Shown here piece after piece: positions 6,745 through 18,442 of a stretch of DNA of 64,000 nucleotides (position 1 is its first letter; every line of letters starts with the position of its first letter). The notes under the pieces are model-generated. The model was not told the origin of the DNA and searched no databases. It worked only from the letters and a program-made list of their open reading frames with translations. This DNA is from Deltaproteobacteria bacterium (GTDB taxonomy: Bacteria > Myxococcota_A > UBA796 > SXON01): positions 29,208 to 93,207 of the forward strand of contig CANLGL010000014.1 in the NCBI GenBank assembly GCA_947490345.1, written 5' to 3'. A program made the position numbers and the translations under genes.

Positions 6745-6799
6745 GGGCGGGAGTGTAACGCACCGGCCCGGCGGGTTATGGTGGTTGGGGGTGGCCGAC

Positions 6800-8278
6800 A
6801 TGCTGATCATGGTGCTTTCCGCCTGCCTGCCCCCGATTCTGTCGGACACCGGGGTGGCGCCGGACTCGGGAGACAGCGCGGATACGAGTGACTCGGGGGA
6901 TCCGATCGACGGGGACGGCGACGGGGACGGGTTCGTCGCCGACGACTGTGACAACGCCGACTCGGCCACTCATCCCGGCGCGTCGGAGAAGCTGGACTTC
7001 AAGGACCAGGACTGCGACGAAATCACAGTCGAGACGGTCACCGATCACGTGGGGGCAGTGTCCCACGCCGGCGTTGGCTTCGTCCTGTCGATCTCGACCT
7101 TCGCCGAGATGGGTGCGGGCGGGCCAGAAGTGGCGGCCGGGATCATTCGCGACGGCGTCAGCTCGGTGCAGGTGGCGCGGGTGGACGACCTCCGCAGCGA
7201 CCTGACCGGGGGCACCGCGCTCACCCACACCGGCGCGAAGAGCTTCGGCTTCGACCTCCTCGCCCAGGACCTCGACGGCGACGGCGTCACGGACCTCGCG
7301 ATTGGGGACCCGGTGATGGGGGCGTACATCTTTGCCGCTGGCAGCCTCCTGGGGCCGGCCGGATCGAGCCTGAACACGGACACGTTCCCGACGCTTCAGG
7401 ACCGCGTGGGTGGGGGTTCGGTGGGCTTCGCCTCCGCGGTGATCGGCCAGACCTTCGCGGTTACCCACTCCGGTGGCGCCGGCAACTCCGTGTACCTGCT
7501 CGACGCGGGTACCCTGTTGACCACTGCGAACTCCGGTCTGGTTGGGGGGGGCGTCATCGTGAGCACGGAGACTGCCTCCGGGTTCGGCGCCAATCTTGCC
7601 GGGCTGAAGGTCGATGGCGACCTCGTCGCCGATCTCATTGTGGGCGCGCCATTCGGTGCCGCGCTCAAGGGGCAGGTCTTCCTCTTTGACGGCACGGCGG
7701 TGTCCCAAGGCGCTCCGATTCTCACGGAGGAGGATGCGGACTGCACCCTCACCGGCGAGAAGGTCTCCCTGCGCCTCGGCGGCGGGGCGATTCCAGCACG
7801 CGATGCCACCGGTGACGGGACCGATGATCTGCTCCTGGCCACCTATGCGACGGGTGGGGATGCCGAGGAGCGCACCTGGTATCTGGTGCCGGGCGGCCCC
7901 TTTTGCGGCACGCAGACAATTGAGAATGCGGCATTCGCCGTCATCCGGGGGACCCGCCCGTACGTGCTCGATGCTGGTCTTGACGTCAGTCTTCTCTCCG
8001 CGACCAGCGCCGATCTCGATGAGGACGGCATCAACGAGCTCATCGCCGGCTCGCCGAGCGAAACCCGCGGCACGGTCTACATCTTCGCCGGTCATACCTT
8101 CGCCACCCGCGGAACCTATGAGTTGAGCGACGCTTCAGCCGGGCTGGTCGGTCAGGTGCCCGACGACATCTTCGGCGCGGTGGTGGGCGTCGGCGGGTCG
8201 GTGGGGGACGGCGCGCTGCTGATCAGCGCACCTGGCCAGGAACAGGGTACCTTCTGGTCTGTCGATCTCGCGTTCTGA
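6800..8278 (+). CDS. FG-GAP repeat lipoprotein with N-terminal cysteine 'putative metal-binding' motif
   Basis: ATG at 6800 gives MLIMVLSAC. DGDGDGFVADDCDNADSATHPGASEKLDFKDQDCDE, then repeated FG..L...DLDGDG..DL.IG/VDGD..ADLIVGAP/DEDGINELIAGSP blades. The first 88 codons of ORF 6536..8278 overlap the divergent lipoprotein gene. Confidence 0.8.
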   Translation: MLIMVLSACLPPILSDTGVAPDSGDSADTSDSGDPIDGDGDGDGFVADDCDNADSATHPGASEKLDFKDQDCDEITVETVTDHVGAVSHAGVGFVLSISTFAEMGAGGPEVAAGIIRDGVSSVQVARVDDLRSDLTGGTALTHTGAKSFGFDLLAQDLDGDGVTDLAIGDPVMGAYIFAAGSLLGPAGSSLNTDTFPTLQDRVGGGSVGFASAVIGQTFAVTHSGGAGNSVYLLDAGTLLTTANSGLVGGGVIVSTETASGFGANLAGLKVDGDLVADLIVGAPFGAALKGQVFLFDGTAVSQGAPILTEEDADCTLTGEKVSLRLGGGAIPARDATGDGTDDLLLATYATGGDAEERTWYLVPGGPFCGTQTIENAAFAVIRGTRPYVLDAGLDVSLLSATSADLDEDGINELIAGSPSETRGTVYIFAGHTFATRGTYELSDASAGLVGQVPDDIFGAVVGVGGSVGDGALLISAPGQEQGTFWSVDLAF

Positions 8279-8284
8279 GGGTCC

Positions 8285-8758
8285 ATGTCGATTTTGAAGT
8301 CTCTGCTCCACGGTCGGCCGAATGGTCTGCGCGCTCGACTCTTCGGGAAACCCGCGCCATCCTCCTCGGCTCCCCGGGCCCCGGAGGCCAGCTTCGAGAC
8401 CGGTGAAAAGGCGCTTGGGCTCCGAAAGGAGGCCCCCAAAGACGTCACGCCGCCGGATGGCTTCGAGGTTGTCTTGCACAAGGACGCGCTCCCCGACGGC
8501 CAGATCATCGAAGTGATCATGGGCGGGACTTCAGTCGCTGTCGCGCGTGTCGACGGCGTCCACTACGCGATCGCCAACACCTGCGCACACGCGGGTGGCC
8601 CGCTCGGCGATGGGAAGCTGGCCGGCTCGACCGTCACCTGTCCGTACCATGGCTGGAAGTACGACGTCACCACCGGTCGGTGCCTGACGGATACGTCGGC
8701 CTCGGTGAAGACCTTTCCGGTGCGAATCGTCGGCGACGCGGTGTGCGTCCAGCTCTAA
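8285..8758 (+). CDS. Rieske [2Fe-2S] domain protein
   Basis: CAHAGGPL...CPYHGWKY is the C-x-H ... C-x-x-H Rieske motif. An N-terminal region of about 65 aa is low-complexity. Confidence 0.85.
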   Translation: MSILKSLLHGRPNGLRARLFGKPAPSSSAPRAPEASFETGEKALGLRKEAPKDVTPPDGFEVVLHKDALPDGQIIEVIMGGTSVAVARVDGVHYAIANTCAHAGGPLGDGKLAGSTVTCPYHGWKYDVTTGRCLTDTSASVKTFPVRIVGDAVCVQL

Positions 8759-8767
8759 CGAGCAGCG

Positions 8768-8792
8768 GGGGAAGGGCCTGCGCCCCTTCCCC
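8768..8792. terminator. GC-rich hairpin between convergent Rieske and rpmB genes
   Basis: GGGGAAGGG (8768-8776) pairs with CCCTTCCCC (8784-8792) around a 7-nt loop, 10 nt after the Rieske stop. No U-tract, so its function as an intrinsic terminator is uncertain. Confidence 0.35.
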
Positions 8793-8989
8793 TACCGCGC
8801 CATTCCCTTCGGCCTCCAACCTGCGGTTTGCGGCCTGCGGCGCGCGGCGCGTTGGTAACGCGCCGCGACGTGTCGCTCTCCCCATCCCGCCCAGCCGCAG
8901 ACCGGCCCCTGACGCTCGGGCGTTTCATGGGCCTGGGAGTCGCTGCACGCGCCATGGGTGACCAAGCCGAGCCGGCCACGCGCCTGATG

Positions 8990-9220
8990 TCACCCCGCCG
9001 CGAGACCCTGGTCGCGCAAGAACTGGCCCAGCGTCATCTTCCGAAGCGTGCGCAGCACGCGGGTAGAGAGCTTCAGCGTGATGAAGCGGCTTTCTTCCGC
9101 GTACCACACCTTCTTCATCTGAAGATTCGGAAGCTGACGCTTCTTGGTCTTCACATTGGAATGCGACACGTTGTTCGCGACGTTGGGGCGCTTTCCGGTC
9201 AGGTCGCAGCGGCGTGCCAT
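8990..9220 (-). CDS. rpmB: 50S ribosomal protein L28
   Basis: MARRCDLTGKRPNVANNVSHSNVKTKKRQLPNLQ... is the canonical L28 N-terminus. ATG is the complement of 9218-9220 with AAGAGGA upstream. The rest of ORF 8990..10141 was rejected. Confidence 0.95.
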   Translation of the reverse strand: MARRCDLTGKRPNVANNVSHSNVKTKKRQLPNLQMKKVWYAEESRFITLKLSTRVLRTLRKMTLGQFLRDQGLAAG

Positions 9221-9317
9221 GAAATCCTCTTGCTTCGAAGCCCGGGCGTTTACCCGGCTGGGCCCTCGGGCGCAACCCCCTTGATTCTGAGCCCAGCGCG
9301 TGTGAAGGCGAAGAGGC

Positions 9318-10013
9318 GTGTCTATGGCTCCGACGATGCTCCGATGGACTGCCGCCGCCATCGGCCTCGGCCTCGTCGTCGGCGGCGCGTGGGCGTGTTG
9401 GGAAGTGGCCCTCAAGGGCGTCGAGGGGGCCAACGCGGCCCGGGTGACCATGGGCTTGTTTTTTTTGATCATCGGGATTCCCCTACTGGTCCTTCCCGCG
9501 CTCGTCGGTTCCGGGGTCATTGCCGATCCGGCCGGTCCTTGGATCAGCCCCCTCGCACGGTTGGCGGCGGAGCACGGGCAGCAGGTGCAGTCCGACCCCG
9601 CGTTGGGGGTGTGGTTCCAGATCATACACAGCGGACCCCGATTCACCGTGCTCATCGACGCGCGCGCCAACGTGTTGAGGCTGGACAGCCGAAGGGCGCT
9701 TCGGCACGGCGTCGTGGTCGTGCGCCGGGGCGAGCCCCTCGAAGGCGAGGCGGCGAGCTGGAACGAAGCGGCGCGTGGCGCTTCCTGGTCCATGTACGCC
9801 GAAGTCACGGCGGGCGCCGCGTCGCTGGCGCACAGCCGGGAGCTGGGCGGCGCCCTCGACAACTTCTTCGCCTTCCGCGGCGCTCGGCGGGTCGTGTTCG
9901 GAGCGGAAGGGCTCAGCCTCCAGTTTCGGCTTCCCTCCCCCGAGGCCACGCCGGCCGCGATTCGTTCCGCGCTCGAGGTCGCAAGGACGATCTGGCACGC
10001 CAGCGCGGGATAA
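9318..10013 (+). CDS. hypothetical membrane protein
   Basis: Two hydrophobic segments (AAAIGLGLVVGGAWACW and LFFLIIGIPLLVLPALVGSGVI) and coding-like composition. No recognised family. ATG 9324 is an alternative start. Confidence 0.55.
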   Translation: MSMAPTMLRWTAAAIGLGLVVGGAWACWEVALKGVEGANAARVTMGLFFLIIGIPLLVLPALVGSGVIADPAGPWISPLARLAAEHGQQVQSDPALGVWFQIIHSGPRFTVLIDARANVLRLDSRRALRHGVVVVRRGEPLEGEAASWNEAARGASWSMYAEVTAGAASLAHSRELGGALDNFFAFRGARRVVFGAEGLSLQFRLPSPEATPAAIRSALEVARTIWHASAG

Positions 10014-10024
10014 TCATCCAGGCC

Positions 10025-10957
10025 ATGGACCCGGTCTACCACCGCCTGCCCGTCGTCGATGCGGGCGGTATGGAGCTTCACCTCCCCATCGTGGACCTTG
10101 GATCGGGCCCGCCGCGGCTGTGCATTGTGGCCGGGATTCACGGCGACGAGCCCTCGCCGCTCTTGTTGGTCGACCGCATGGTGCTGGCGCTGCGGGAGCG
10201 AGAATTATCAGCCGGAATCCGGATCGTAGCGGCGGCAAATATTCCCGCATTACTTCAGCGCGCGCGATGGAGCAGTTGGGACGACGAGGACATGAACCGC
10301 ATCGGCGATGGCGACGGAGGTCCTGCGCTCACACGCCGCCTGGCGGCCGCGGTGGTCGCCGCGTGTGACGGCTGCGACGTCGTGGTGAACCTCCACAACT
10401 TTGTGATGCGCACCCCGCTTCTCGCCGTCTGGCCGCCGGGCCAGAGCGCGGGGCATGCGGAGCGACACGAGCTACTGCTTGCGGCCCTCGATCCGCACGT
10501 TGTCTGGGTTTTCGGGGACACGCCGGCGGATGAGCGCATCTTCGCGGGCAGCCTCGACGCGGCGCTGGAGCGGCGCGGCTGCCACGTCCTCGCCGTGGAA
10601 ATGTCTGATCTTCCCGAGATGGACGAACCGCTCCTGGCGCGTTCGGTGGCTGGGCTCCTGCGCGTCGCCGCCCAGGTGGGGTGCCTCGTCGATCAGGAGC
10701 GGGCGCCTCGCCGCAATCGGGTCTACGTGCATCGGCGATTGGTTCGTGCGCCAGGGGCAGGGATATTCGAGCCCATCGCCGCACTCGGCGGACAGGTCGT
10801 CGCCACGGACGTCGTGGGCGAGCTCATTCCGCTGGAGCGCCCGGGGCATCGGGTGCCGATCTTGGCGGGAGACTCAGGCTGGTTGATTCAGCGGCTCGCC
10901 CGCCGCTTCGTGCGTCCAGGGGACATGATCTTCACGGTGGGCCATCCCGCTAGATAG
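10025..10957 (+). CDS. succinylglutamate desuccinylase/aspartoacylase (AstE/AspA, M14-like) family protein, paralog 1 (metal motifs intact)
   Basis: ATG 10025 inside ORF 8828..10957. LCIVAGIHGDEPSP (H-x-x-E), DMNR, VVVNLHNF (second His), and the C-terminal beta domain GELIPLERPG...GDMIF. Confidence 0.8.
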   Translation: MDPVYHRLPVVDAGGMELHLPIVDLGSGPPRLCIVAGIHGDEPSPLLLVDRMVLALRERELSAGIRIVAAANIPALLQRARWSSWDDEDMNRIGDGDGGPALTRRLAAAVVAACDGCDVVVNLHNFVMRTPLLAVWPPGQSAGHAERHELLLAALDPHVVWVFGDTPADERIFAGSLDAALERRGCHVLAVEMSDLPEMDEPLLARSVAGLLRVAAQVGCLVDQERAPRRNRVYVHRRLVRAPGAGIFEPIAALGGQVVATDVVGELIPLERPGHRVPILAGDSGWLIQRLARRFVRPGDMIFTVGHPAR

Positions 10958-11123
10958 TGAAGTCGACTTCGACCACGCCGCGTTCCTCCCGGTCCTCGGT
11001 GACCTCGACGGCCTCCGGGCGCGGGGGCGGCGGGGCTGGAATATCGATGCGCAGCGGAACGCGGGCGTGGGCCGGCGCCTCGCGCTCGCGTTGGATTCGG
11101 TTGATGATGAACGCGTCAAGCAT
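10950..11123 (-). CDS. small hypothetical protein (57 aa), not in the ORF track
   Basis: My translation gives MLDAFIINRIQREREAPAHARVPLRIDIPAPPPPRPEAVEVTEDREERGVVEVDFTI*. ATG is the complement of 11121-11123 and is preceded by GAGG, which overlaps the DUF2520 TGA stop with a 7-nt spacer. Third codon positions are mostly G/C. It falls below the track's length cutoff. Confidence 0.5.
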   Translation of the reverse strand: MLDAFIINRIQREREAPAHARVPLRIDIPAPPPPRPEAVEVTEDREERGVVEVDFTI

Positions 11124-11131
11124 CTTGTGCC

Positions 11132-11920
11132 TCAGCTCGCATCGTCAGGCTCGGTCGACCCACTTCCAAACGGAGTATAGCCACCACTCTTGACACCGGC
11201 ATCGTCGAGTGCCTCGTGCGCACGCAGAAAAATGATTCGCGCGGTGCCCGCATCGTAGATGGGGAGCAAGGCCGGCGGCAGCGCCGAACGGTGGGCCCCG
11301 ATCGTGGCGGTGTCGCCGCGGGCGGCCGGCCCGGTCAGTCCCGCGGGTCCGGCACCCAAGACGCGTGCGAGGCTCGCCTGTGCCAGCGGCGCGATGGTTC
11401 GTCGAGCGTCCACAAGAGACATGCCGGTTGAACTGGAAAAAAGTCGCGCCGCATCCTCGACGAGCACCCCGAGGTGGCCCGACACGAGGCAGGCCGCCGC
11501 GTGGTAGCCGGCGCGGTCTGACACGCCGCCCACCGGGCTCCAACCGAGCGCGCCCGCCAGCTCGTTCGCCAGGGCCACCGCGACCGGAGCCCCGTCGATC
11601 GTACACGGGACGGTGGTTCCTTCCGGATGGGGAAAGGTCATCAGCGGGTGAAGCACGGCGCCCGGACGGCCGCCCAGCACCTCGGGGCCCAGGCTGCCGG
11701 CGCTGTGAAGGGCGATGGCCCCGGCTGGGAGCTTCGCCGCCGTCGATGCCACCGCGTCGTCAGGCACCGTCAGCCAGTAGGCATCGGCCTTGGGGAGGGC
11801 TTCGTCGTGATGTGAAAGTGTCACGCTCCGGCCAGCCGCACCGAGGCTCGCCGCCACCGCGTTGCCCAGGCGGCCGGCGCCGACGATGACCAGGCTGACG
11901 GGGCGATGCACGGCAATCAT
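11132..11920 (-). CDS. Rossmann-like / DUF2520 domain oxidoreductase-like protein
   Basis: ATG is the complement of 11918-11920. LVIVGAGRLGNAVAASL (Rossmann) and LTGPAARGDTATIGAHRSAL (DUF2520 signature as I remember it). The Arg-rich first 76 codons of ORF 11132..12148 were rejected. Confidence 0.75.
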   Translation of the reverse strand: MIAVHRPVSLVIVGAGRLGNAVAASLGAAGRSVTLSHHDEALPKADAYWLTVPDDAVASTAAKLPAGAIALHSAGSLGPEVLGGRPGAVLHPLMTFPHPEGTTVPCTIDGAPVAVALANELAGALGWSPVGGVSDRAGYHAAACLVSGHLGVLVEDAARLFSSSTGMSLVDARRTIAPLAQASLARVLGAGPAGLTGPAARGDTATIGAHRSALPPALLPIYDAGTARIIFLRAHEALDDAGVKSGGYTPFGSGSTEPDDAS

Positions 11921-11925
11921 GTAAC

Positions 11926-11953
11926 GGGAGAAGGGGCGTGTGCCCCTTCCCCC
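11926..11953. promoter_or_regulatory. GC-rich hairpin in the 56-nt divergent region between the DUF2520 and BC-like genes
   Basis: GGGAGAAGGGGC gtgt GCCCCTTCCCCC forms 11 pairs with one mismatch and a 4-nt loop. The right arm TG(T)GCCCCTTCCCC is nearly identical to the hairpin at 8768-8792. Confidence 0.35.
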
Positions 11954-11976
11954 CGTTTGTGGATAGACTTCGCGCC

Positions 11977-13272
11977 GTGAGCGATGTGCGGCCGATTCAG
12001 CGCGTCCTGGTCGCCGATCGCGGCGAGGTGGGCGTGCGCCTCTTGCGGGTGCTCGAAGCCAACGGACTGGAGGGGATCGCGGTCTTCTCCGACGCGGACG
12101 CCGACGCACCCTGGCTCGATTCTGCCGCGTATGCGGTGCGGATTCCACCCTCGCCCTCGGGCACCCTCGACCCCTACATGGACCCCGCGGGGATCGTCAG
12201 CGCCGCGCTCGACAGTGGGGCCGACGCCGTCCACCCCGGCCTGCACGGATTGGCGCGGAGCGCGGACTTCGCGCGCACGCTCCACAACGTGGGGCTCATG
12301 TGGCTCGGCCCCCGGCTGGACGACCTCACGTGGACGGTCGATCGGGTCCTGGCCCGCGCTCGCGCTCGCGAGGCCGGCCTGGAAATTTTGCCATCGAGTC
12401 CACTTCTATTCGATCCCGACGCGGTAGAAGCGTGGTGCGAGCGTTTCGGCTTTCCGATGGTCATTCGCCCCGGGCGGCGATTGGCGATGCGGAGTCGCGT
12501 GGTCCACGATCGCTCGTCGGCGCGTCGTGCCGTGGCGGAGGCTGCGGAGGTCGGGGTCTTTGCCGAGCGCGCGCTGCCGGAGGCCCGCCACGTCGCGGTC
12601 GTGGTCGTCGGGGATGGCTACGGCAACGCGGTGCACGTGGGCGAGCACGAACTCTCGCTGCTCGGTCCGGCGGGGGTACGACTGCGAGAGTGCCCGTCGG
12701 CCGGTGTGGACGGCGCGCTACGGGCGCGGATCGGCCAGGGGGCCGCAGACTTTTTGGCGGCGTCCCGGTACTTCGGGGTCGGCGCGGTCCACTTCCTGAT
12801 CGGGGGCGACGGCCTGGCCTGGTTCCTCGACGTGGAACCTGGACTCCCGGAGGGCTTCGCGTTGCACGACAAGGTGTACGGCGTCGATCTCGTGGGCGCG
12901 CAGGTGGCGCTCGCTTCTGGCGAGGAGCTGGGCTGGGATCAGGACGACATCGCCCCGGACGGCTGTGCCGCCGAAGTTGCGATCGCGCTGCGGCGTCGCG
13001 GCCGGGCGACGCGGCTCGAGTTCGCCGATCCGGCCTGCGTGGACACCGCCGTCAGCGTCGGTCAACGCGTGGATCCGGCGCGATACCCGATCCTTGCGCG
13101 GGTGAGGGTGTCGGCGCCCACCCGGAACGCGGCGTTGGTGCGTCTTCGGGCCAACTTGGAGGGGGCGGTGGTCGAGGGGGTGGAGACCGATCTGGCCGCT
13201 TGCGTCGAGCTCCTGGCGGACCTCGCGGTCTGGGAGGGACGGACGGCACGACGCATCACCGACCGGCGGTAG
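11977..13272 (+). CDS. biotin-carboxylase-like ATP-grasp protein, apparently catalytically degenerate
   Basis: VSDVRPIQRVLVADRGEVGVRLLR..HPGLHGLARS.. is collinear with biotin carboxylase N, ATP-grasp and C domains. It reads FPMVIRPGRRLAMRSRVV where the K-strand and glycine-rich loop are expected, and LDVEPGLPEGF where E-M-N-x-R-x-Q-V-E-H is expected. Start is GTG 11977 or 11986; 11938 lies inside the hairpin. Confidence 0.75.
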   Translation: MSDVRPIQRVLVADRGEVGVRLLRVLEANGLEGIAVFSDADADAPWLDSAAYAVRIPPSPSGTLDPYMDPAGIVSAALDSGADAVHPGLHGLARSADFARTLHNVGLMWLGPRLDDLTWTVDRVLARARAREAGLEILPSSPLLFDPDAVEAWCERFGFPMVIRPGRRLAMRSRVVHDRSSARRAVAEAAEVGVFAERALPEARHVAVVVVGDGYGNAVHVGEHELSLLGPAGVRLRECPSAGVDGALRARIGQGAADFLAASRYFGVGAVHFLIGGDGLAWFLDVEPGLPEGFALHDKVYGVDLVGAQVALASGEELGWDQDDIAPDGCAAEVAIALRRRGRATRLEFADPACVDTAVSVGQRVDPARYPILARVRVSAPTRNAALVRLRANLEGAVVEGVETDLAACVELLADLAVWEGRTARRITDRR

Positions 13273-13297
13273 CCGGTCGTGGTACCCTCGCGCGGTC

Positions 13298-14221
13298 GTG
13301 CCGCATTCGCTGGAAGTCCTGATCGAGATCGAGTTGCCGACAGGCGACGTGGTCGGGGTCCATCGCCGACGGTTTGCGGGCGGTGTCGGTCCGCATGTGG
13401 TGTTGGTTGCGGGCATTCGGGGGGACACGCCGGAGGGCACGCGGGTGCTGCACGCCGTCGGTCGGCACCTCGAGTCGGTGGCCGATCGGCTGACTGGGAC
13501 GGTCGACCTTTACCCCTGCCTCAATCCGCTCGCCGCACACCAAGGCGCGCGGAACTGGCCAGGCTTGGACGTCGACTTGAACCGACGTTTTCCCGGGCGC
13601 CACGACGGCCACGCCCCCGATCGTGTCGCCGCGCGGTTCATGGCTGAGGTCGAGGGTGCTGACCAGGTCATCGAGCTCCGTGGCGCCCACCCCGCCTTTC
13701 GGCTCGCGCCGCACGCGAGGGTGGGCAAGGACCAACTTGTCGCGGTGGAGCGCGCCAGCACCGCCAACGTCCGCGCCTTGTGGACCTCGTCCGCCTCGCC
13801 CGGTGCGGGCTCGCTGGAAGAGGCGATCCCGGGCCTCATCGGCCTGCTTGGTGGCGTCGGCAACCGGCTCACCGACGGTGTAGGACTTGAGCTGGCGGAC
13901 GGATTGCTCAACCTGCTGGCGGTCATGGGCGTGATTCCGGAAGAGGATCTGCCGTTTCATTGGGCGGCGGTGCAGCGCCCGGCGGTGGTGGACGATGAGC
14001 ACGTGGTCGATCTGCGTTCGATGCGAGGCGGTCTTTTCATCCCCGCGGTCGGCGCTTGGGCCGAGGTCGACGCCGGGGATGTGGTGGGTGAGGTCATCGA
14101 GCCCATCAGTGGCGAGGTGAGGGAGGAGCTCCGCGCGCCAGCCGCGGGGCGTGTCCTGGCTCTCCGCGAAGAGCCGGTGATCTACCCGGGCAACCTCGTC
14201 TGCCGCTTGGTGCTCGCATGA
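13298..14221 (+). CDS. AstE/AspA (M14-like) family protein, paralog 2 (both His ligands replaced)
   Basis: VLVAGIRGDTPEG (Arg in place of the first His), DLNRRFPG retained, VIELRGAHP (Arg in place of the second His), and the C-terminal beta domain GEVIEPISGE...GNLVCRLV. Confidence 0.75.
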   Translation: MPHSLEVLIEIELPTGDVVGVHRRRFAGGVGPHVVLVAGIRGDTPEGTRVLHAVGRHLESVADRLTGTVDLYPCLNPLAAHQGARNWPGLDVDLNRRFPGRHDGHAPDRVAARFMAEVEGADQVIELRGAHPAFRLAPHARVGKDQLVAVERASTANVRALWTSSASPGAGSLEEAIPGLIGLLGGVGNRLTDGVGLELADGLLNLLAVMGVIPEEDLPFHWAAVQRPAVVDDEHVVDLRSMRGGLFIPAVGAWAEVDAGDVVGEVIEPISGEVREELRAPAAGRVLALREEPVIYPGNLVCRLVLA

Positions 14222-15114
14222 CCGATCACCCGTTCTTTGAGCTCGAATCGCCTTACCGTGGGTGGTATCGCCTGCACCGACTCAGCTTCGGCAGCGGCGG
14301 GCCGGTCACGACGCTCGTTGCCGGCATCCACGGGAACGAGTGCAACGGCACCTACGCGTTGAACCTGCTGGCGGGCAGGCTGCGCTTGCAACCGCCGCGG
14401 GGAACGGTGCACCTCGTACCCTGTGTGAACCTGTTCGGCGCCGAGGAGGGTCGTAAGCGGTGGCCGTTCGACGATCGTGATATCAACGAGGTGTTTCCCG
14501 GCGATGCGGATGGCTCGCCGGTCGAGCGCGTCGCCGAGGCGGTGATGCGCGCTTCGGAGGGGCAGCTTTGTGTCGACCTGCAGACTGGTTCGGCGGTGGT
14601 GCACGAAGTTCCGCATGTTCGCGCGCCTTTGACGGGTCCGGTTCTGGCGTTGGGACAGGCGGCGGGTCTGCCGGTTTTGTGGCGGCGGCCGGCCGAGCAG
14701 TTCGACGACGGGCTCCTGGGCGCCTGGCGCGCAGCGGGGCGGACGGCACTGGTGCTCCGAGGCGGCCGCGGGGGCTCCCTGGACGTCGACGATGCCAAGA
14801 CGATGGCGCGGGCGTTGGTGCGGTTGCTGGCGCAGGCGGGTCACCTCCATGCTCCCGAGCCTGCGCCGCCGACCATCGTGACGGAAAAGATGCTTGATTA
14901 CCGCTGCGAGGTGGGCGGCTTCTTCGTTCCGGAGGTGCGACCAGGCGAGCCCGTCGTGGTGGGGCAGGTGCTCGGCACGTTGCGGGCTGCGATTGGCGGC
15001 GAGACCATCGAGAGTTTTCACGCCACGGCCGCGGGAGTCGTGCTGGCCGTTCGTGTGTACCCAGTGGTGCACGGGCGGGAGCTCGTGGTGCGGGTGGCGC
15101 AGTCAACGACCTGA
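14218..15114 (+). CDS. AstE/AspA (M14-like) family protein, paralog 3 (second His ligand replaced)
   Basis: ATGA overlap with paralog 2. LVAGIHGNECNG (H-x-x-E kept), DINEVFPGD (Arg to Glu), CVDLQTGS (Gln in place of His), and the C-terminal domain GQVLGTLRAAIGGE...HGRELVVRV. Confidence 0.75.
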   Translation: MTDHPFFELESPYRGWYRLHRLSFGSGGPVTTLVAGIHGNECNGTYALNLLAGRLRLQPPRGTVHLVPCVNLFGAEEGRKRWPFDDRDINEVFPGDADGSPVERVAEAVMRASEGQLCVDLQTGSAVVHEVPHVRAPLTGPVLALGQAAGLPVLWRRPAEQFDDGLLGAWRAAGRTALVLRGGRGGSLDVDDAKTMARALVRLLAQAGHLHAPEPAPPTIVTEKMLDYRCEVGGFFVPEVRPGEPVVVGQVLGTLRAAIGGETIESFHATAAGVVLAVRVYPVVHGRELVVRVAQSTT

Positions 15115-15174
15115 CAACTTGGGAACCGAGCTCGGCAACCGCGGGTCGGAGCTCTCAACGAGGAGTGCAGCACG

Positions 15175-17313
15175 ATGGCCGGCATATTGTGGTGGGTTTG
15201 GTCGGCGTGGGCGCTTGAGGCGACCGTCGAGGTCGGTGAGATCACGGTCGCGACCGACGCGGCCGACACGGTGGTCCAGGCGGAGGCGGCGCTCACGGGC
15301 GGGCGCTTCGTGGAGGCCGCGGGGCTGTACAAGGCGCTCGCGGAGGCGGGCGGCGGTGCGCAAGCGCGCCTGGCGGAGGCGGTCGCCTGCTACGAGCTTG
15401 GTGATCTGAACGCGGCGAAGCGGGCGATCGACGCCGCGGTTCGCCTGGCTCCGAAAGACGCGGCTGTGCTCAACGTCCAAGGTCTCCTTCTGGTGGACGG
15501 GGGGCAGGTGCTCGCCGGAATCGAAGCGCTCAAGGCATCGAAGGCGGTCGCGAAGAAGGCGGGACGCAAAGGCAGCGAGGCGAGGGCCGGCGTGAATCTC
15601 GCGCTCGCCTACGTCGACCTTGGCGATGCGGCCGCGGCGACGGCGGAGGGCAAGGCGGCGGCGAGTCTTGCGGAGGCGGACGGAGACGCCGCGCTGGTGG
15701 CAGCCGCGCGCGAAGTGGACGGGCTGGTCGCGGCGCTGGCTGGCACCGACTCTGGCGTGGGCACGCTCCTGGGCAAGGGGCAGACCAGCGCAGCTCGCGG
15801 GGCGGCGGAGGTCGCGGTGAGCGCGGCGCGGACGCCTCGCCAGGAGATCATGGCCGCTCTGGAGCTGGCCGCCGTCGAACGCGCCGAGGGTCGCTTGGAG
15901 GAGGCGGCCGCGCGCCTTGGCGGGGCCGCGAAACGTGCGCGGGAGCAGGGGCTCGTGCGGGAGCACGCAATTGGGCTCATCGACCTCGGCCTCGTCCAGT
16001 CCCTCGGCGGCCGCATCGCGGTGGCGGAGGACACGCTGCGCGCCGCCGCCCGCTCCGCGAACGCGGCTGGCTATCGGGTGGTCGAGGTGGACGCGCGTTG
16101 TGAGCTGGGGCTGGTGCTGGTCGCGGCCGAGGACCTCGCGGGAGCGCGTGCTGAGCAGGGCGCCGCGGGACTGCTCCTGGGTGGCATGCAATACGCGCAG
16201 GGGGTCGCGCGGCAGGCGGAGCTTGGCGGTGTGCTGGCCGGGCGTGGAGGTGATCTGGCCACGGCGAAGGCGGCACTCGGCAAGGCCGCGACCTACTACG
16301 CGGGGCGGGGGCGCAACCTGGATGCGGCGCGGGCGACAACCGCGCTGGCGGGCGCCTGGCAGCAGGCGGAGCCCGCCGGAGCGGGGACGCCCGCGTTGGC
16401 CGCAGAGGGGTACTTTCGTGCGGCGGGGGACAAGCTCGGCCCCGCACACGTGCTGTTGTCGCGGGCGCTCGGCGACGCGCGAGCGAAGCGCTTGCCGGAC
16501 GCGCTGGCTGGGTTTGCGAAGGCGGCGGCGGCCGCCGAAGCGGTCGGAGGCGGTCGGGCGACGGCCCTGGCTCGGGTGTCGCGACAGAATGCGGCCGCGG
16601 CCCTGGTCATGCTCGGCCATGACGCCGACCTTGCCAAGCTGGCCTCAGACGCAGGCCTGGGCGATCTCGTCAAGCGCGAGCAGCGGCTCAGCGGGGCGGC
16701 CGCCCGCTACGACGCTGGCCTGGGCGCGTACGGCGCCGGCCGCTTCGAAGAGGCCAAGGCAGCCTTCGCGGAGGCGCGTACGACTTTTGAGTCGCTGGGC
16801 GAAGTCGAGTACGCGCTCCGTGCGCGGCGCTCGGCCGCCTGGTCCGGCTACAACGTGCTCGTCACCGTTCCCGCCGCCAAGGCGCTGCCGAGCTGGCAGG
16901 CGCTTGTCGTGGAGACTGGCGCTGTGGAGGACCCGGAGTTGTACGCCCGGGCCTACGGCGCGTCGGTGATGGCGTCGGTGACTCAGAAGGTGCCCGACCT
17001 CGGCGCGCGGCTGACCGAATGCACCCGCGTGGCCGAGAAGGCCGGGCTTGGCGACGTCGGCGCGCGTTGCCAGGGGGCGCTTGCCGAGACCGCAGGGGCC
17101 GACTTGCGGGAGCGTGCGTCCCACGCGCGGGAGGCCCATCGCCTCGATCCCCGCGGCACCGCCGGGGTGTACGCGCTCTACGTCGTCGCGGTCGACGCCT
17201 ACAATGCCGACGAGGTGGCGCTCGCGACGGAGCTGGCCACCCTCGCGCGCCCGAACGCGGGCACGCTCGGGCCGGCGCTGGACGAGATGCTTCGGCTGAT
17301 GCGGAGCCAGTGA
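15175..17313 (+). CDS. Ala-rich tetratricopeptide (TPR-like) repeat protein with N-terminal signal/anchor
   Basis: MAGILWWVWSAWALEA start. Recurrent 34-aa-type helices (GRFVEAAGLYKALAE..., LGDLNAAKRAIDAAVRLAPKDAAVLNVQG...) run through 712 aa. Confidence 0.7.
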   Translation: MAGILWWVWSAWALEATVEVGEITVATDAADTVVQAEAALTGGRFVEAAGLYKALAEAGGGAQARLAEAVACYELGDLNAAKRAIDAAVRLAPKDAAVLNVQGLLLVDGGQVLAGIEALKASKAVAKKAGRKGSEARAGVNLALAYVDLGDAAAATAEGKAAASLAEADGDAALVAAAREVDGLVAALAGTDSGVGTLLGKGQTSAARGAAEVAVSAARTPRQEIMAALELAAVERAEGRLEEAAARLGGAAKRAREQGLVREHAIGLIDLGLVQSLGGRIAVAEDTLRAAARSANAAGYRVVEVDARCELGLVLVAAEDLAGARAEQGAAGLLLGGMQYAQGVARQAELGGVLAGRGGDLATAKAALGKAATYYAGRGRNLDAARATTALAGAWQQAEPAGAGTPALAAEGYFRAAGDKLGPAHVLLSRALGDARAKRLPDALAGFAKAAAAAEAVGGGRATALARVSRQNAAAALVMLGHDADLAKLASDAGLGDLVKREQRLSGAAARYDAGLGAYGAGRFEEAKAAFAEARTTFESLGEVEYALRARRSAAWSGYNVLVTVPAAKALPSWQALVVETGAVEDPELYARAYGASVMASVTQKVPDLGARLTECTRVAEKAGLGDVGARCQGALAETAGADLRERASHAREAHRLDPRGTAGVYALYVVAVDAYNADEVALATELATLARPNAGTLGPALDEMLRLMRSQ

Positions 17314-17330
17314 ACGAGGTAGGGAGAGCG

Positions 17331-18434
17331 ATGGCAAGCAAACAGACGGACATGGACGCGCTCGCGGACGCATTCGCGGGAGTTCAGCGCCTCGGACAGC
17401 CTGCTGCGCGTGGTACTCCGATGCGGGCCACGCCTGCGGGGGCAACCCCCAGTCGCAGCGCCGGCGCGGCACAGCCCGGGCCTCCCTCGCGTTCGGCGGA
17501 GGTCGAGCAACGCCCGGCGGCGGCGCCTGCCAGCCTCGACGACGACGCCGCGTTGCGTGAAGCGCTCCGCGGCGTGCGGCGGCTCGACCCGCAGTCGTCG
17601 GCGGCGGCTTCGCGTTCCCAGGCCGCGCCGGTCCCCGCCTCGCTGACCCCGCCGTCCAGCGAGTTGTTGCGCCATCTGGAGCGGCAGAACGAGGTCTTGA
17701 CGACGCGCGTCGTCGGGCTTGAACGTGAGCGGGACGAGGCTCGGCTGTCGGCGCTCTCGGCGACCGCTGACGCAGCGGCTGCCGCCGTGCGCCTCGAGGA
17801 GGTCTCCGCGCGGCTCCGCGAGCTCGAAGCCGAGGGTCGCACCCTCCGTGACCGCGCCAACGAGCGCGCCACCGGCGAGCTGCGCACCCTCCTGGTCGAG
17901 CGCGGCCTCCGCAGCGAAGCCGAGATGGCCGCGGCGCTCGGGGCGCTCCTCGACGGCGGGCGGTTCCTGCCGCTGCTTGGCGGGCTGGTCGTGGCGCGCC
18001 GTGCCGAGATGATCGCGTTCTTGGAGGAGCGGCTCATCCTGCTTGCGGAAGGGGAGGAGGCGCCCGCAGGGCGCGTGGCGGTGCGGGTGCCGAGCGAGCG
18101 GAGCGAAGCGCGCGAGGACGGTGCGCTCCGTACAGCGCTCGCCGCGTTTTCGACGGCTTGCCTGGTCGCCGGGAAGCGCCGGGTGGTCTTCGTGGGCGGC
18201 TCGCCAGCCTACCGGAAGCAACTGCGCGAGGGCCTGGACCGCCGCCTCGATCTGCGCTTCGTCGAAGGCGACCAGGTCCGCATCCCCCGCGTCGACGCCG
18301 ATCTGGTCATCGTCTGGGGGGCCACCGAGCTCGATCACCGCGTCAGCGCCCACTTCCCGGGAGCGCTGCTGGTCCCCCACCGCGGCATCGTTGGGATGCT
18401 CACGATGGCGGCGGAGCGGATGTCAGGGGGCTGA
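17331..18434 (+). CDS. hypothetical coiled-coil protein with DUF2325-like C-terminal domain
   Basis: ATG 17331 preceded by GAGGTAGGGAGAG. The central region is heptad-like (LERERDEARLSALSATADAAAAAVRLEEVSARLRELEAEGRTLRDRA). The C-terminus RRVVFVGGSPAYRKQLREGL..LRFVEGD...DADLVIVWGATELDHRVS resembles DUF2325 from memory. The upstream 104 codons of ORF 17019 overlap the TPR gene. Confidence 0.6.
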   Translation: MASKQTDMDALADAFAGVQRLGQPAARGTPMRATPAGATPSRSAGAAQPGPPSRSAEVEQRPAAAPASLDDDAALREALRGVRRLDPQSSAAASRSQAAPVPASLTPPSSELLRHLERQNEVLTTRVVGLERERDEARLSALSATADAAAAAVRLEEVSARLRELEAEGRTLRDRANERATGELRTLLVERGLRSEAEMAAALGALLDGGRFLPLLGGLVVARRAEMIAFLEERLILLAEGEEAPAGRVAVRVPSERSEAREDGALRTALAAFSTACLVAGKRRVVFVGGSPAYRKQLREGLDRRLDLRFVEGDQVRIPRVDADLVIVWGATELDHRVSAHFPGALLVPHRGIVGMLTMAAERMSGG

Positions 18435-18442
18435 CGACGGCG

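What the first reader, a model, noticed from the sequence alone, without database searches (positions are those of the whole stretch)
10025..15114. Cluster of apparent pseudoenzymes: degenerate biotin-carboxylase-like ATP-grasp protein plus three AstE/AspA (M14-like) paralogs with progressively eroded metal sites
Seen in the sequence:
- The ORF at 11977..13272 is collinear with biotin carboxylases. ADRGEVGVRLLR parallels ANRGEIA, HPGLHGLARS parallels HPGYGFLSEN, and a BC C-domain is present.
- Where BCs carry the Lys strand and glycine-rich ATP loop (..PVIIKA..GGGG[KR]GM..), this ORF reads FPMVIRPGRRLAMRSRVV.
- Where BCs carry the Mg/catalytic block (E-M-N-x-R-x-Q-V-E-H), it reads LDVEPGLPEGF.
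- Two AstE/AspA-family genes follow directly and are coupled by an ATGA overlap. Their first metal motif G-x-H-G-x-E reads GIRGDTPE (His to Arg) and GIHGNECN (kept). Their second His motif ([DN]-L-H) reads ELRGA (Arg) and DLQTG (Gln).
- Only the upstream same-strand paralog (10025..10957) keeps both motifs (GIHGDEP, NLHNF).
- A DUF2520 Rossmann gene and a 57-codon ORF lie divergently between them.

The reference motifs are from my memory of E. coli AccC and the aspartoacylase/AstE family.

Inference: the operon encodes proteins derived from a ligase and deacylases that probably no longer catalyse the ancestral reactions. They could form a binding or regulatory complex, or carry out new chemistry. 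ATP-grasp plus M14-like pairings are known for peptide-ligase systems, but I know of no described system with a BC-derived member.
Basis: partly seen in the sequence, partly recalled or inferred. Interest (0 to 1): 0.7.

Follow-up and report, generated by a model that had tools for sequence, protein, structure and literature searches.

The report
Conserved dead carboxylase and deacylase relatives
An uncultured freshwater Myxococcota lineage keeps, under strong selection, relatives of biotin carboxylase and of zinc deacylases that lack their catalytic residues, so they must now do something other than the ancestral reactions.

Summary
The ORF at 11977-13272 has a complete biotin carboxylase (BC) fold. 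It lacks the glycine-rich loop and K238, E276, E288, N290, R292, E296 and R338. Every true BC in the same alignments keeps all 21 positions I checked.

- AstE2 (13298-14221) has Arg/Thr/Arg where the Zn ligands His/Glu/His should be.
- AstE3 (14218-15114) has Gln for the third ligand and Arg for the general-base Glu.
- AstE1 (10025-10957) is intact.

These genes are not decaying. dN/dS against a 92%-identical orthologue is 0.04-0.10. The arrangement recurs in 16 of 17 distinct loci of this BC-like subfamily.

- The dead BC belongs to a broad, undescribed family of standalone BC-like proteins. I found them only in Myxococcota-type MAGs. Their oldest neighbours are DUF2520, the 57-aa ORF and rpmB, not the AstE genes.
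- AstE2 and AstE3 form an older, always-overlapping pair that also occurs without the BC-like gene. In those loci the pair sits with an intact pyroglutamyl peptidase.
- AstE2's Arg/Arg site is ancient and near-invariant, so the "progressive erosion" reading does not hold.

The function is unknown. My best guess is a non-hydrolytic hetero-oligomer that binds a ligand.

The parts
8990..9220 (-). rpmB (ribosomal protein L28). It is part of the syntenic block that accompanies pseudo-BC genes in most loci with enough upstream sequence.
   Evidence: tblastn orthologues are 52-100% identical in L005-L009, L011, L013, L017, L024, L028, L029, L033, L035, L036, L038, L039 and L045. Pfam Ribosomal_L28 is recorded on the neighbouring loci.
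9318..10013 (+). h231, a 231-aa protein with hydrophobic N-terminal segments and no family match. It lies 11 nt upstream of AstE1.
   Evidence: No Pfam or NCBIfam hit. It is conserved upstream of AstE1 in L005-L007, L009, L013, L017 and L024. In L045 it is present without AstE1.
10025..10957 (+). AstE1, an AstE/AspA-family (M14-like) protein with the complete catalytic set. It is probably an active Zn deacylase of unknown substrate.
   Evidence: Pfam AstE_AspA_cat 3.6e-14. GIHGDEPSP, NLHNF and LAVEMSD are invariant in 11 orthologues. dN/dS is 0.040. It scores 35 bits against the DoeB model, whose cut-off is 403, so it is not DoeB.
10950..11123 (-). s57, a conserved 57-aa protein of unknown function (MLDAFIIxRIRxxRE ... 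ERGVxxVDFxI).
   Evidence: Orthologues are present in 14 other loci across pseudo-BC subfamilies. It lies between rpmB and DUF2520 wherever both are on the contig. dN/dS is 0.155. No family match.
11132..11920 (-). Rossmann + DUF2520 protein with the GAGRLG motif, divergently transcribed from BCL. The intergenic gap is 17-56 nt, depending on the BCL start.
   Evidence: Pfam DUF2520 1.8e-22. It is adjacent and divergent to the pseudo-BC gene in every locus with upstream sequence except L023 and L026. No PDB sequence match.
11977..13272 (+). BCL, a standalone protein with the biotin carboxylase fold that lacks the catalytic machinery (pseudo-BC, subfamily A1). An alternative start is GTG 11938.
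   Evidence: Family matches. Residue mapping. The AF2 model has pLDDT 93 and pTM 0.92. Foldseek TM-scores to BC structures are 0.88-0.92. dN/dS is 0.049. The family is delimited.
13298..14221 (+). AstE2, an AstE/AspA-fold protein with Arg, Thr and Arg in place of the His, Glu and His zinc ligands. It keeps the substrate-side R..NR..FPG motifs.
   Evidence: alignment to 2QJ8 and 6TWM. The AF2 model has pLDDT 90.5. TM-scores to DoeB and 2QJ8 are about 0.8. The motifs are near-invariant in 120 cluster representatives. dN/dS is 0.074.
14218..15114 (+). AstE3, an AstE/AspA-fold protein whose start overlaps the AstE2 stop (ATGA). It keeps His and Glu, has Gln as third ligand (His in distant orthologues), has Arg for the general-base Glu, and has lost the Arg of the N-R motif.
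   Evidence: dN/dS is 0.103. AstE2 and AstE3 overlap by 4 or 8 nt in all 11 loci with gene calls.
15175..17313 (+). TPR712, an Ala-rich TPR protein with a signal-peptide-like N-terminus. It is a conserved downstream partner of the AstE2-AstE3 pair.
   Evidence: Weak TPR hits. Orthologues follow AstE3 (or the C15 peptidase) in L001, L006, L007, L010, L013, L020, L022, L023 and L024. dN/dS is 0.051.
17331..18434 (+). h17, a coiled-coil protein with a C-terminal DUF2325-like region. It recurs downstream in the AstE2/3 module.
   Evidence: tblastn relatives occur in L006, L007, L010, L013, L020-L022, L024 and L025. The L021 homologue has a weak DUF2325 hit (1.1e-4, below cut-off).

Best explanation
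**Shown**
- The window carries functional but catalytically degenerate descendants of two enzyme families.
- BCL keeps the whole BC fold. It cannot carry out ATP-dependent carboxylation of biotin, because the glycine-rich phosphate loop and the residues that hold bicarbonate, biotin and the reaction intermediate are missing.
- AstE2 cannot bind the catalytic zinc in the canonical way, because all three ligand positions are replaced. It keeps the substrate-side Arg/Asn-Arg motifs. In nearly all relatives, though not in this window, it also keeps the general-base Glu.
- AstE3 shows the reciprocal pattern. Its metal ligands are ancestrally kept, but the general base and the substrate-side Arg are lost.
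- AstE1 looks like a normal zinc deacylase.
- All of these genes are under strong purifying selection.

**Inferred**
- AstE2 and AstE3 are always translationally coupled. They probably assemble into a hetero-oligomer that binds a carboxylate-bearing small molecule or peptide rather than hydrolysing it.
- This pair belongs to an older Myxococcota module with the exported TPR protein and h17.
- In this lineage the resident pseudo-BC has probably been drawn into that module as a non-catalytic adaptor or regulatory subunit. Its ancestral home is beside DUF2520, s57 and rpmB.
- The intact AstE1 may be the catalytic partner.

**Confidence by step**
- That these are conserved, non-canonical proteins rather than decaying genes: about 0.9.
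- That BCL physically works with AstE2/3: about 0.45.
- That the assembly binds rather than turns over a ligand: about 0.35.
For: **Loss of catalytic residues**
- BCL. True BCs in the same alignments keep 21 of 21 checked positions.
- AstE2. AstE3. All paralogs across orthologues.
- In the AstE-family enzyme CphZ, changing the equivalent Glu (E251A) abolishes activity while zinc and substrate binding remain (PMC9974463). This fits an inactive but ligand-competent AstE3.

**Folds are retained**
- BCL model: pLDDT 93, TM 0.88-0.92 to BC structures.
- AstE2 model: pLDDT 90.5, TM about 0.8 to DoeB and 2QJ8.

**Selection**
- dN/dS is 0.049 for BCL, 0.074 for AstE2, 0.103 for AstE3, 0.040 for AstE1 and 0.051 for TPR712.
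- The neighbouring Rieske gene is at 0.116 and DUF2520 at 0.21.
- Family-specific motifs are invariant down to 34-45% identity.
- In AstE2, RGD[TA]PEG and E[LV]RG are near-universal in 120 representatives.

**Linkage of BCL to AstE2/3**
- 16 of 17 distinct subfamily-A loci have BCL upstream of AstE2-AstE3 on the same strand.
- The BCL stop overlaps the AstE2 start by 4 nt in the deep-branching L026 and L029.
- The trio stays together in two unrelated contexts that lack DUF2520: L023 (pseudouridine synthase side) and L026 (TetR/RND side).
- It also stays together after local rearrangement in L013.
- The general-base position of AstE3 is Arg in all 12 BCL-containing loci and Val in all 4 BCL-less loci.

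**AstE2-AstE3 coupling**
- The two genes overlap by 4 or 8 nt in all 11 loci with gene calls.
Against: - No protein-protein evidence exists.
- BCL and AstE2/3 can each exist without the other. BCL occurs alone in L003 and L028 and in subfamilies B, C and D. AstE2/3 occurs alone in L020-L022 and L025.
- In L010, L012, L013 and L015 an opposite-strand hydrolase gene sits between BCL and AstE2, so the two are not co-transcribed there.
- All BCL-positive loci may share one ancestral insertion. The adjacency counts and the Arg/Val correlation are therefore confounded by phylogeny.
- AstE2 has many invariant charged residues of its own, including H105, E126 and H221 in LPFHWA. This looks more like an active or ligand site than a passive scaffold.
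- Subfamily-A BCL keeps acidic residues at the two Mg positions (E/H276, D288), R116, R159 and E201. Some nucleotide or metal binding is therefore not excluded.
Confidence: 0.5

Rival explanations
1. **Neo-enzymes.** The remodelled sites are new active sites. AstE2, with or without AstE3, would catalyse a metal-independent or differently metallated reaction, using Arg41, Arg128, Glu184 and the family-specific His105 and His221. BCL would still bind a nucleotide or phosphorylated ligand through Arg116, Arg159, Glu201 and Asp288, and would perform non-carboxylase ATP-grasp-like chemistry.
For: - The replacement residues are themselves near-invariant rather than free to vary. This holds for AstE2's R/T/R, its kept Glu, H105 and LPFHWA.
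- It also holds for the BCL motifs GEHE, RLRECPS and D-x-[DE]-P-G-L-P-E-G-F.
- Acidic residues persist at the two Mg positions in subfamily A.
- AstE3 ancestrally keeps a full His-Glu-His triad.
- An intact pyroglutamyl peptidase sits in the BCL-less version of the module, so the context is enzymatic.
Against: - The BCL active-site positions differ completely between pseudo-BC subfamilies. Subfamily A is acidic, B is Arg-rich, and C and D are Gly/Ser. That is unexpected for one conserved chemistry.
- The phosphate-gripping glycine loop is deleted or scrambled in all of them.
- This window's own AstE2 has lost the Glu (Leu), and its AstE3 has lost the third ligand (Gln), without any relaxation of selection.
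- No ATP-grasp enzyme known to me works without the two conserved Lys and the Gly-rich loop (own knowledge).
Confidence: 0.25
2. **BCL is unrelated to the AstE genes.** The pseudo-BC would work with its ancient neighbours: DUF2520, s57, and an enoyl-CoA hydratase in some lineages. Alternatively it would be a dead subunit that modulates the genuine acyl-CoA carboxylase by heterodimerising with its BC domain. On this reading the AstE2/3 module landed next to it once, and the adjacency is inherited synteny.
For: - DUF2520 is divergently adjacent to the pseudo-BC in all five subfamilies, and s57 and rpmB accompany it wherever the contig reaches that far. This includes lineages with no AstE genes, where rbfA-truB-pnp follow instead.
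- ECH_1 genes overlap the pseudo-BC start in L035 and L045.
- The AstE2/3 module is complete without BCL elsewhere.
- The closest true relatives of BCL are BC-BCCP alpha subunits of acyl-CoA carboxylases.
- R16 and R19 of the BC dimer interface are mostly kept.
Against: - BCL-AstE2-AstE3 travel together into two contexts that lack DUF2520 (L023, L026).
- BCL and AstE2 overlap by 4 nt in L026 and L029.
- AstE1 is also inserted in the same block, so AstE-family genes flank the core on both sides.
- The other dimer-interface positions (E23, F363, R366) are not kept in subfamily A.
Confidence: 0.2
3. **Decay or chance.** The genes would be decaying paralogs, or mis-called ORFs that are adjacent by chance in a high-GC genome.
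For: - At about 70% GC, long spurious ORFs are common.
- The scores against curated enzyme models are far below the cut-offs.
Against: - dN/dS is 0.04-0.10 with dS of 0.7-0.97.
- Full-length orthologues exist down to 34% identity with no frameshifts, in more than 25 loci.
- The structure models are confident.
- Gene order is conserved.
Confidence: 0.02

Closest known systems
Biotin carboxylase (E. coli AccC; the BC domain of acyl-CoA carboxylase alpha subunits)
   Same: - The three-domain BC fold is shared, with TM 0.88-0.92 to 2V58, 3RV4 and 7ZZ4.
- All three Pfam BC domains are collinear.
- Structural motifs such as RGE, HPG and E201 are kept.
   Different: - It has no BCCP domain or partner gene.
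- The glycine-rich loop is deleted.
- K116R, K159R, H236A, K238V, E276H, E288D, N290E, R292G, Q294P, E296G, H297F and R338A.
- It scores 207 bits against a 597-bit cut-off.
- New invariant residues appear: E32, D79, W153, W320 and W419.
DoeB/EutE N-acetyl-L-2,4-diaminobutyrate deacetylase and its uncharacterised structural relatives 2QJ8, 3CDX and 3NA6 (AstE/AspA family, M14-like)
   Same: - These are the best sequence and fold matches for all three paralogs.
- The two-domain build is shared: a catalytic domain plus a C-terminal beta domain. AstE3 gives a weak hit to the RnfC barrel-sandwich hybrid domain.
- EutE works as a functional bi-module with another protein, EutD (PMC8739950).
   Different: - Scores are 35-45 bits against a 403-bit cut-off.
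- AstE2 has no zinc ligands.
- AstE3 has no general base.
- No ectoine-utilisation genes are nearby.
CphZ, the cyanophycin dipeptide hydrolase, which clusters with cyanophycin synthetase (an ATP-grasp enzyme, own knowledge)
   Same: - It is an AstE-family protein (fold hit 8EIN).
- It is genetically clustered with the cyanophycin synthetase-cyanophycinase genes (PMC9974463).
- It shows that loss of the general-base Glu leaves zinc and substrate binding intact.
   Different: - CphZ and CphA1 are active enzymes.
- The ATP-grasp partner is not BC-like.
- No cyanophycin genes are present here.
ATP-grasp ligase + M14-like hydrolase peptide-tagging systems (RimK-type; comparative-genomics literature, cited from my own knowledge)
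   Same: An ATP-grasp-fold gene is paired with AstE/M14-like genes.
   Different: - Here both partners lack catalytic residues.
- The ATP-grasp member derives from a carboxylase, not from an amidoligase.
- No target or carrier peptide was identified.
Non-catalytic paralogs that regulate biotin-dependent carboxylases, such as plant BADC proteins, which are BCCP-like but lack the biotinyl Lys (own knowledge)
   Same: The concept is shared: a dead relative of a carboxylase component is kept by selection.
   Different: - BADC is BCCP-derived and eukaryotic.
- I found no BC-derived example.
- A link between BCL and a real carboxylase is untested.

Membership tests
Biotin carboxylase (AccC / BC domain), as an enzyme | Three-domain BC fold (N, ATP-grasp central and B, C domains) | tested here: met
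   Pfam domains. The AF2 model has pLDDT 93. Foldseek TM-scores to BC structures are 0.88-0.92.
Biotin carboxylase (AccC / BC domain), as an enzyme | Glycine-rich ATP-phosphate loop (GGGG[KR]G, E. coli residues 163-168) and Lys116/Lys159 | tested here: not met
   The loop is deleted or replaced (RPGRRLAMR), with K116R and K159R. All true BCs in the same alignment keep these positions.
Biotin carboxylase (AccC / BC domain), as an enzyme | Mg ligands E276, E288 and N290, and catalytic K238, R292, E296 and R338 | tested here: not met
   They read H, D, E and V, G, G, A in the window protein. They are lost in all five pseudo-BC subfamilies.
Biotin carboxylase (AccC / BC domain), as an enzyme | Curated family score (NCBIfam AccC models) | tested here: not met
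   207 bits against cut-offs of 597-627.
Biotin carboxylase (AccC / BC domain), as an enzyme | A BCCP partner or domain and a carboxyltransferase in the same system | tested here: not met
   BCL has no Biotin_lipoyl domain. No BCCP or CT gene lies in the surrounding 12 kb. The rest of the genome could not be examined.
AstE/AspA (M14-like) zinc deacylase - AstE1 | His-x-x-Glu ... His zinc triad plus general-base Glu | tested here: met
   GIHGDE, NLH and LAVEMSD are invariant in 11 orthologues. Enzyme activity was not testable.
AstE/AspA (M14-like) zinc deacylase - AstE2 | His-x-x-Glu ... His zinc triad | tested here: not met
   The positions read Arg, Thr/Ala and Arg. The fold itself is retained.
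AstE/AspA (M14-like) zinc deacylase - AstE3 | Zinc triad plus general-base Glu | tested here: not met
   The triad reads His, Glu, Gln in the window (His in L001, L005, L017, L020-22, L024 and L025). The general base is Arg or Val in all 16 sequences.
DoeB/EutE, AstE, AspA and MpaA equivalogs (specific enzymes) | Score at or above the curated equivalog cut-off | tested here: not met
   The best score is 35-45 bits against 403 for DoeB. The others are lower.
ATP-grasp + M14-like peptide ligase/hydrolase system | A catalytically competent ATP-grasp amidoligase and a competent M14-like hydrolase in one operon | tested here: not met
   The ATP-grasp member is BC-derived and lacks its catalytic residues. 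Two of the three M14-like members are degenerate. A target peptide or carrier was not identified.
Rossmann + DUF2520 family | DUF2520 domain after an N-terminal GxGxxG Rossmann segment | tested here: met
   Pfam DUF2520 1.8e-22. GAGRLG is present at residues 14-19 of the translation. Its function is unknown, and only incidental mentions were found in the literature.

The most novel reading that the evidence does not exclude
A whole family of fossil biotin carboxylases has been repurposed as non-catalytic adaptors in uncultured Myxococcota. In this lineage the dead BC would use the surface that once received the biotinyl (barrel-sandwich hybrid) domain of BCCP. With it, it would dock the barrel-sandwich-like C-terminal domains of a reciprocally crippled AstE2/AstE3 hetero-oligomer. 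The result would be a three-pseudoenzyme sensor or regulator that controls the intact deacylase AstE1 or the exported TPR/h17 proteins. In sister lineages a pyroglutamyl peptidase occupies the BCL-less version of the module.
Probability: 0.12. Interest if true: 0.75.

Novelty: new variant of a known kind. Interest (0 to 1): 0.55.

Why it matters
- Biotin carboxylase is one of the best-studied ATP-grasp enzymes. A deeply conserved family that keeps the fold but has none of the catalytic residues appears not to have been described. I found at least five subfamilies, at 30-55% identity to one another.
- The AstE2/AstE3 pair is a clear bacterial case of reciprocal active-site loss in translationally coupled paralogs. 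One keeps the substrate and base residues, and the other keeps the metal ligands. It is conserved over roughly 120 sequence clusters.
- If the proteins assemble, they would show how enzyme scaffolds turn into binding or regulatory modules in bacteria.
- Current automatic annotation calls the BC-like protein "acetyl/propionyl-CoA carboxylase alpha subunit" and the AstE-like proteins "predicted deacylase". These labels would wrongly add carboxylase and deacylase capacity to metabolic reconstructions of these abundant freshwater MAGs.
- The value is limited because there is no functional hypothesis with direct support and no cultured host.

Tried and rejected
- **Fused-chain AlphaFold test.** I built BCL + (GGGGS)x8 + AstE2 with a 12-genome paired alignment to test docking through pTM.
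- **Promoter and terminator scan of 8700-18600.** It found no promoter-like sites. All terminator-like hits lie inside coding regions. The scan is uninformative at 70% GC.
- **Pfam scan of the three AstE C-terminal domains at E<=10.** I was looking for a biotinyl/lipoyl-type match. The only hit was a weak RnfC_N barrel-sandwich match for AstE3 (0.011).
- **Small ORF upstream of AstE2 in BCL-less loci.** I tested whether it is a BC remnant. It shows no similarity.
- **The 235-aa gene upstream of BCL in L026.** I tested whether it is a DUF2520 gene. It is not. It is an acidic lipoprotein-like ORF.
- **Literature searches.** I searched for pseudo-BC, AstE with ATP-grasp neighbourhoods, AstE in Myxococcus, and DUF2520. 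Nothing relevant turned up.
- **Metagenome scan with the subfamily-B profile.** Most of the 80 loci were true BCs. Only 11 were pseudo-BCs, but those were informative.
- **Search for a pyroglutamyl peptidase, the lipase-like gene or a genuine AccC elsewhere in the window.** None was found.
- **PDB sequence search with DUF2520.** No match.
- **Defence-system and mobile-element readings.** I considered and rejected these. The context is housekeeping (rpmB, rbfA, truB, pnp), and the composition is uniform.

Full report
**1. What is in the window**

The region is about 70% GC. The real genes, in order, are:
- an FG-GAP/MopE repeat protein (6536-8278, +)
- a Rieske ferredoxin (8285-8758, +)
- rpmB (8990-9220, -)
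- a 231-aa hydrophobic protein, h231 (9318-10013, +)
- AstE1 (10025-10957, +)
- a 57-aa ORF, s57 (10950-11123, -)
- a Rossmann/DUF2520 gene (11132-11920, -)
- the BC-like gene, BCL (11977-13272, +)
- AstE2 (13298-14221, +)
- AstE3 (14218-15114, +)
- a 712-aa TPR protein, TPR712 (15175-17313, +)
- a 367-aa coiled-coil protein, h17 (17331-18434, +)

NCBIfam shows how far these proteins lie from the real enzymes. BCL scores 207 bits against an AccC cut-off of 597. The AstE paralogs score 35-45 bits against the DoeB cut-off of 403.

**2. The active sites**

*BCL.* HMMER alignments to solved BCs and MAFFT alignments that include E. coli AccC agree.
- K116R and K159R.
- The GGGGRG loop is deleted (VIRPGRRLAMRSRVV).
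- H236A, K238V, E276H, E288D, N290E, R292G, Q294P, E296G, H297F and R338A.
- E201 and H209 are kept.
- In the same alignment about 35 genuine BCs keep all 21 inspected positions without exception. The alignment is therefore reliable and the losses are not noise.
- An AlphaFold model built on a 50-sequence alignment that includes true BCs is confident (pLDDT 93, pTM 0.92).
- It superposes on E. coli, S. aureus and L. lactis BC structures with TM 0.88-0.92. The fold is intact.

*AstE paralogs.* The table compares the key positions. The canonical motifs are taken from 2QJ8, 3CDX and 6TWM as aligned.

| Position | Canonical | AstE1 | AstE2 | AstE3 |
|---|---|---|---|---|
| Zn ligands 1 and 2 (H-G-x-E) | H, E | H, E | R, T | H, E |
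| Substrate-side N-R-x-F-P-G | NR..FPG | NRIGDG | NRRFPG | NEVFPG |
| Zn ligand 3 (D-x-H) | H | H | R | Q |
| General-base Glu (T-E-x-G-G) | E | E | L | R |

AstE2 also folds confidently (pLDDT 90.5). It matches DoeB, 2QJ8 and CphZ structures.

In CphZ, mutating the equivalent Glu abolishes activity while zinc and substrate stay bound (PMC9974463). This is a useful precedent for what AstE3 may still be able to do.

**3. Not decay**

I compared the window with an orthologous locus, L006, which is 92% identical in BCL.

| Gene | dN/dS |
|---|---|
| AstE1 | 0.040 |
| BCL | 0.049 |
| TPR712 | 0.051 |
| AstE2 | 0.074 |
| AstE3 | 0.103 |
| Rieske | 0.116 |
| s57 | 0.155 |
| DUF2520 | 0.210 |

dS is 0.7-0.97. 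Full-length orthologues without frameshifts exist down to 34% identity. The "chance adjacency of decaying paralogs" alternative is refuted.

**4. The BC-like family is much larger than this operon**

- The word-indexed search found about 21 clusters at 45-100% identity, then a sharp drop to true BCs.
- The exhaustive profile search of 1.84 billion representatives found more. A further roughly 25 standalone BC-like proteins of 400-456 aa score above all true BCs. Every one has degenerate catalytic positions.
- With metagenome loci added, they fall into at least five groups:
  - A1, the window clade.
  - A2.
  - B, where Arg fills the Mg site and Trp replaces E296.
  - C and D, where the Mg positions are mostly Gly/Ser/Thr/Arg and E296 is Gly.
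- The groups are 30-55% identical to one another.
- What they share is structural residues plus new family-specific invariants: E32, D79, W153, W320 and W419 in window numbering.
- All members come from MAGs or metagenomes. The labels read Deltaproteobacteria, Myxococcota or plain "proteobacterium", and a few are obviously wrong (Klebsiella).
- No member has a curated name. I found no paper on a catalytically dead BC.

**5. Gene neighbourhoods**

*(a) The oldest partner block.* In every pseudo-BC locus with upstream sequence except L023 and L026, DUF2520 lies divergently next to the pseudo-BC, and s57 and rpmB lie beyond it wherever the contig reaches that far. This holds in all five subfamilies. 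In the subfamily B, C and D loci with identifiable downstream genes (L028, L035, L045), rbfA and truB follow (pnp as well in L035 and L045). In L035 and L045 an enoyl-CoA hydratase gene abuts or overlaps the pseudo-BC start.

*(b) AstE2-AstE3 downstream is specific to subfamily A.*
- It is present in 16 of 17 distinct loci. The exception is L003.
- The BCL stop overlaps the AstE2 start by 4 nt in the deep-branching L026 and L029.
- The trio persists where DUF2520 is absent and the surroundings differ completely (L023, L026).
- It also persists after rearrangement in L013.
- Against strict operon status, a minus-strand alpha/beta hydrolase gene is inserted between BCL and AstE2 in L010, L012, L013 and L015. 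An FGE-sulfatase gene is inserted in L023.

*(c) AstE2 relatives are far more widespread than BCL.*
- There are at least 120 clusters at 52% identity or more.
- In BCL-less genomes the module reads: small ORF, AstE2, AstE3, an intact Peptidase_C15, then TPR of about 712 aa and/or an h17-like gene. A divergent Peptidase_S8 with DUF5818 lies upstream.
- AstE2 and AstE3 overlap by 4 or 8 nt in all 11 loci with gene calls.
- No C15 gene is present in any BCL-containing locus or in the window.

*(d) AstE1 occurs only in the subfamily-A block.* It sits between h231 and s57. AstE-family genes therefore flank the s57-DUF2520|BCL core on both sides.

**6. History of the metal sites**

- Across 120 AstE2-family representatives the first motif is G[VIL]RGD[TA]PEG in 96 of the 97 sequences my pattern matched.
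- The third-ligand motif is E[LVI]R[GAS] in nearly all of the 115 matched.
- The general-base Glu (LEGG) is kept in nearly all. Among those 120 representatives the window protein is the only one with Leu there. Its close orthologue L006 shares the Leu.
- AstE2 also has its own invariants that canonical enzymes lack: H105 in DGHAPD and LPFHWA at 218-223.
- AstE3 keeps His-Glu-His in the BCL-less lineages and in L001, L005, L017 and L024. Gln appears only in the window subclade and in L029.
- The general-base position of AstE3 is Arg in all 12 BCL-containing loci and Val in all 4 BCL-less loci. This co-variation is confounded by phylogeny.
- "Progressive erosion" is therefore the wrong description. 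The pair shows an old, reciprocal and stable division: AstE2 keeps the substrate-side residues and the base, and AstE3 keeps the metal ligands.

**7. Interpretation**

*Shown.*
- These are conserved, selected proteins that cannot perform the canonical BC or Zn-deacylase reactions.
- AstE1 probably can perform the deacylase reaction.
- AstE2 and AstE3 are an obligate, translationally coupled pair.
- BCL is genomically tied first to DUF2520/s57 and, in this lineage, also to AstE2/3.

*Inferred.*
- An AstE2/AstE3 hetero-oligomer binds a carboxylate ligand or peptide.
- In this lineage BCL joins that assembly as a non-catalytic subunit.
- One speculative rationale is that BC naturally docks a barrel-sandwich hybrid (biotinyl) domain. 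The AstE C-terminal domain is of that fold class, but the only support here is a weak RnfC_N hit and my own knowledge of the family.

*Rivals.*
- New chemistry at the remodelled sites (0.25).
- A BCL role with DUF2520, or with the true carboxylase, independent of the AstE genes (0.2).
- Decay or chance (0.02).

No tool here could test protein-protein contacts.

**8. Comparison with known systems and verdict**

- The closest known entities are AccC-type BCs (fold only), DoeB/EutE and CphZ-type AstE-family hydrolases (fold only for AstE2 and AstE3, probably also chemistry for AstE1), and ATP-grasp/M14 pairings such as cyanophycin clusters or RimK-type systems (analogy in gene content only).
- Membership in the enzyme families fails on the defining catalytic features for BCL, AstE2 and AstE3.
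- I rate this a new, non-catalytic variant of known folds. It is conserved enough to be biologically meaningful, but it has no supported function and no cultured host.
- Interest is 0.55. The finding is surprising to carboxylase and pseudoenzyme specialists and useful for correcting annotation. It does not yet open a long-standing question.

Noticed in passing
window 10950-11123 (-): s57 is a conserved small protein (MLDAFIIxRIRxxRE ... PLRIE[VI]P ... ERG[VI]xxIDFxI). It has no family match. In every pseudo-BC lineage where it was found it lies upstream of DUF2520, between rpmB and DUF2520 where both are on the contig, including lineages without AstE genes.
   Followed up: partly
L020:9828-10364, L021:9817-10386, L022:9831-10364, L025:8844-9407: In genomes that have AstE2-AstE3 but no BC-like gene, an apparently intact pyroglutamyl peptidase (Peptidase_C15, with Glu/Cys/His present) directly follows AstE3. 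No BCL-containing locus has one. The two may be mutually exclusive accessories of the same module.
   Followed up: partly
L035:5195-6001 and L045:5211-5996: In pseudo-BC subfamilies C and D an enoyl-CoA hydratase (ECH_1, crotonase fold) gene overlaps or abuts the pseudo-BC start. rbfA, truB and pnp follow. This is a different partner set from the window's.
   Followed up: partly
L010:2200-3000 (-), also L012, L013 and L015; L023:5777-6766 (+): Genes are inserted between BCL and AstE2 in some clades. One is an opposite-strand alpha/beta hydrolase (GHSKGG motif; PGAP1/palmitoyl-thioesterase-like). The other is a same-strand FGE-sulfatase-domain lipoprotein.
   Followed up: partly
window 15175-17313 and 17331-18434: The TPR712 protein has a signal-peptide-like N-terminus. 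h17 has a C-terminal segment (VVFVGGSPAYRKQLRE ... DLVIVWGATELDH) that resembles DUF2325. Both recur with the AstE2/3 pair across lineages.
   Followed up: partly
L008, L010, L016 (record titles): The GTDB genome records that hold this Myxococcota-type locus (the window is about 70% GC) are titled 'MAG: Klebsiella pneumoniae' or 'uncultured Klebsiella sp.'. These organism labels in the public records are evidently wrong.
   Followed up: no
window 11920-11977: DUF2520 (ATG at 11920, minus strand) and BCL are only 17-56 nt apart, depending on the BCL start. A purine run, GGGAGAAGGGG, precedes the GTG at 11938 that the public gene call uses. Orthologue N-termini fit GTG 11977.
   Followed up: partly
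window 13298-14221 (AstE2 residues 105 and 218-223): The AstE2 family has invariant residues of its own that canonical AstE/AspA enzymes lack: His105 in DGHAPD and the motif LPFHWA. They could mark a new ligand or catalytic site.
   Followed up: no
window 6536-8278 (+): A large FG-GAP / MopE-motif repeat protein lies upstream of the Rieske gene. It is syntenic in several related loci (L003, L006, L007, L010, L013).
   Followed up: no
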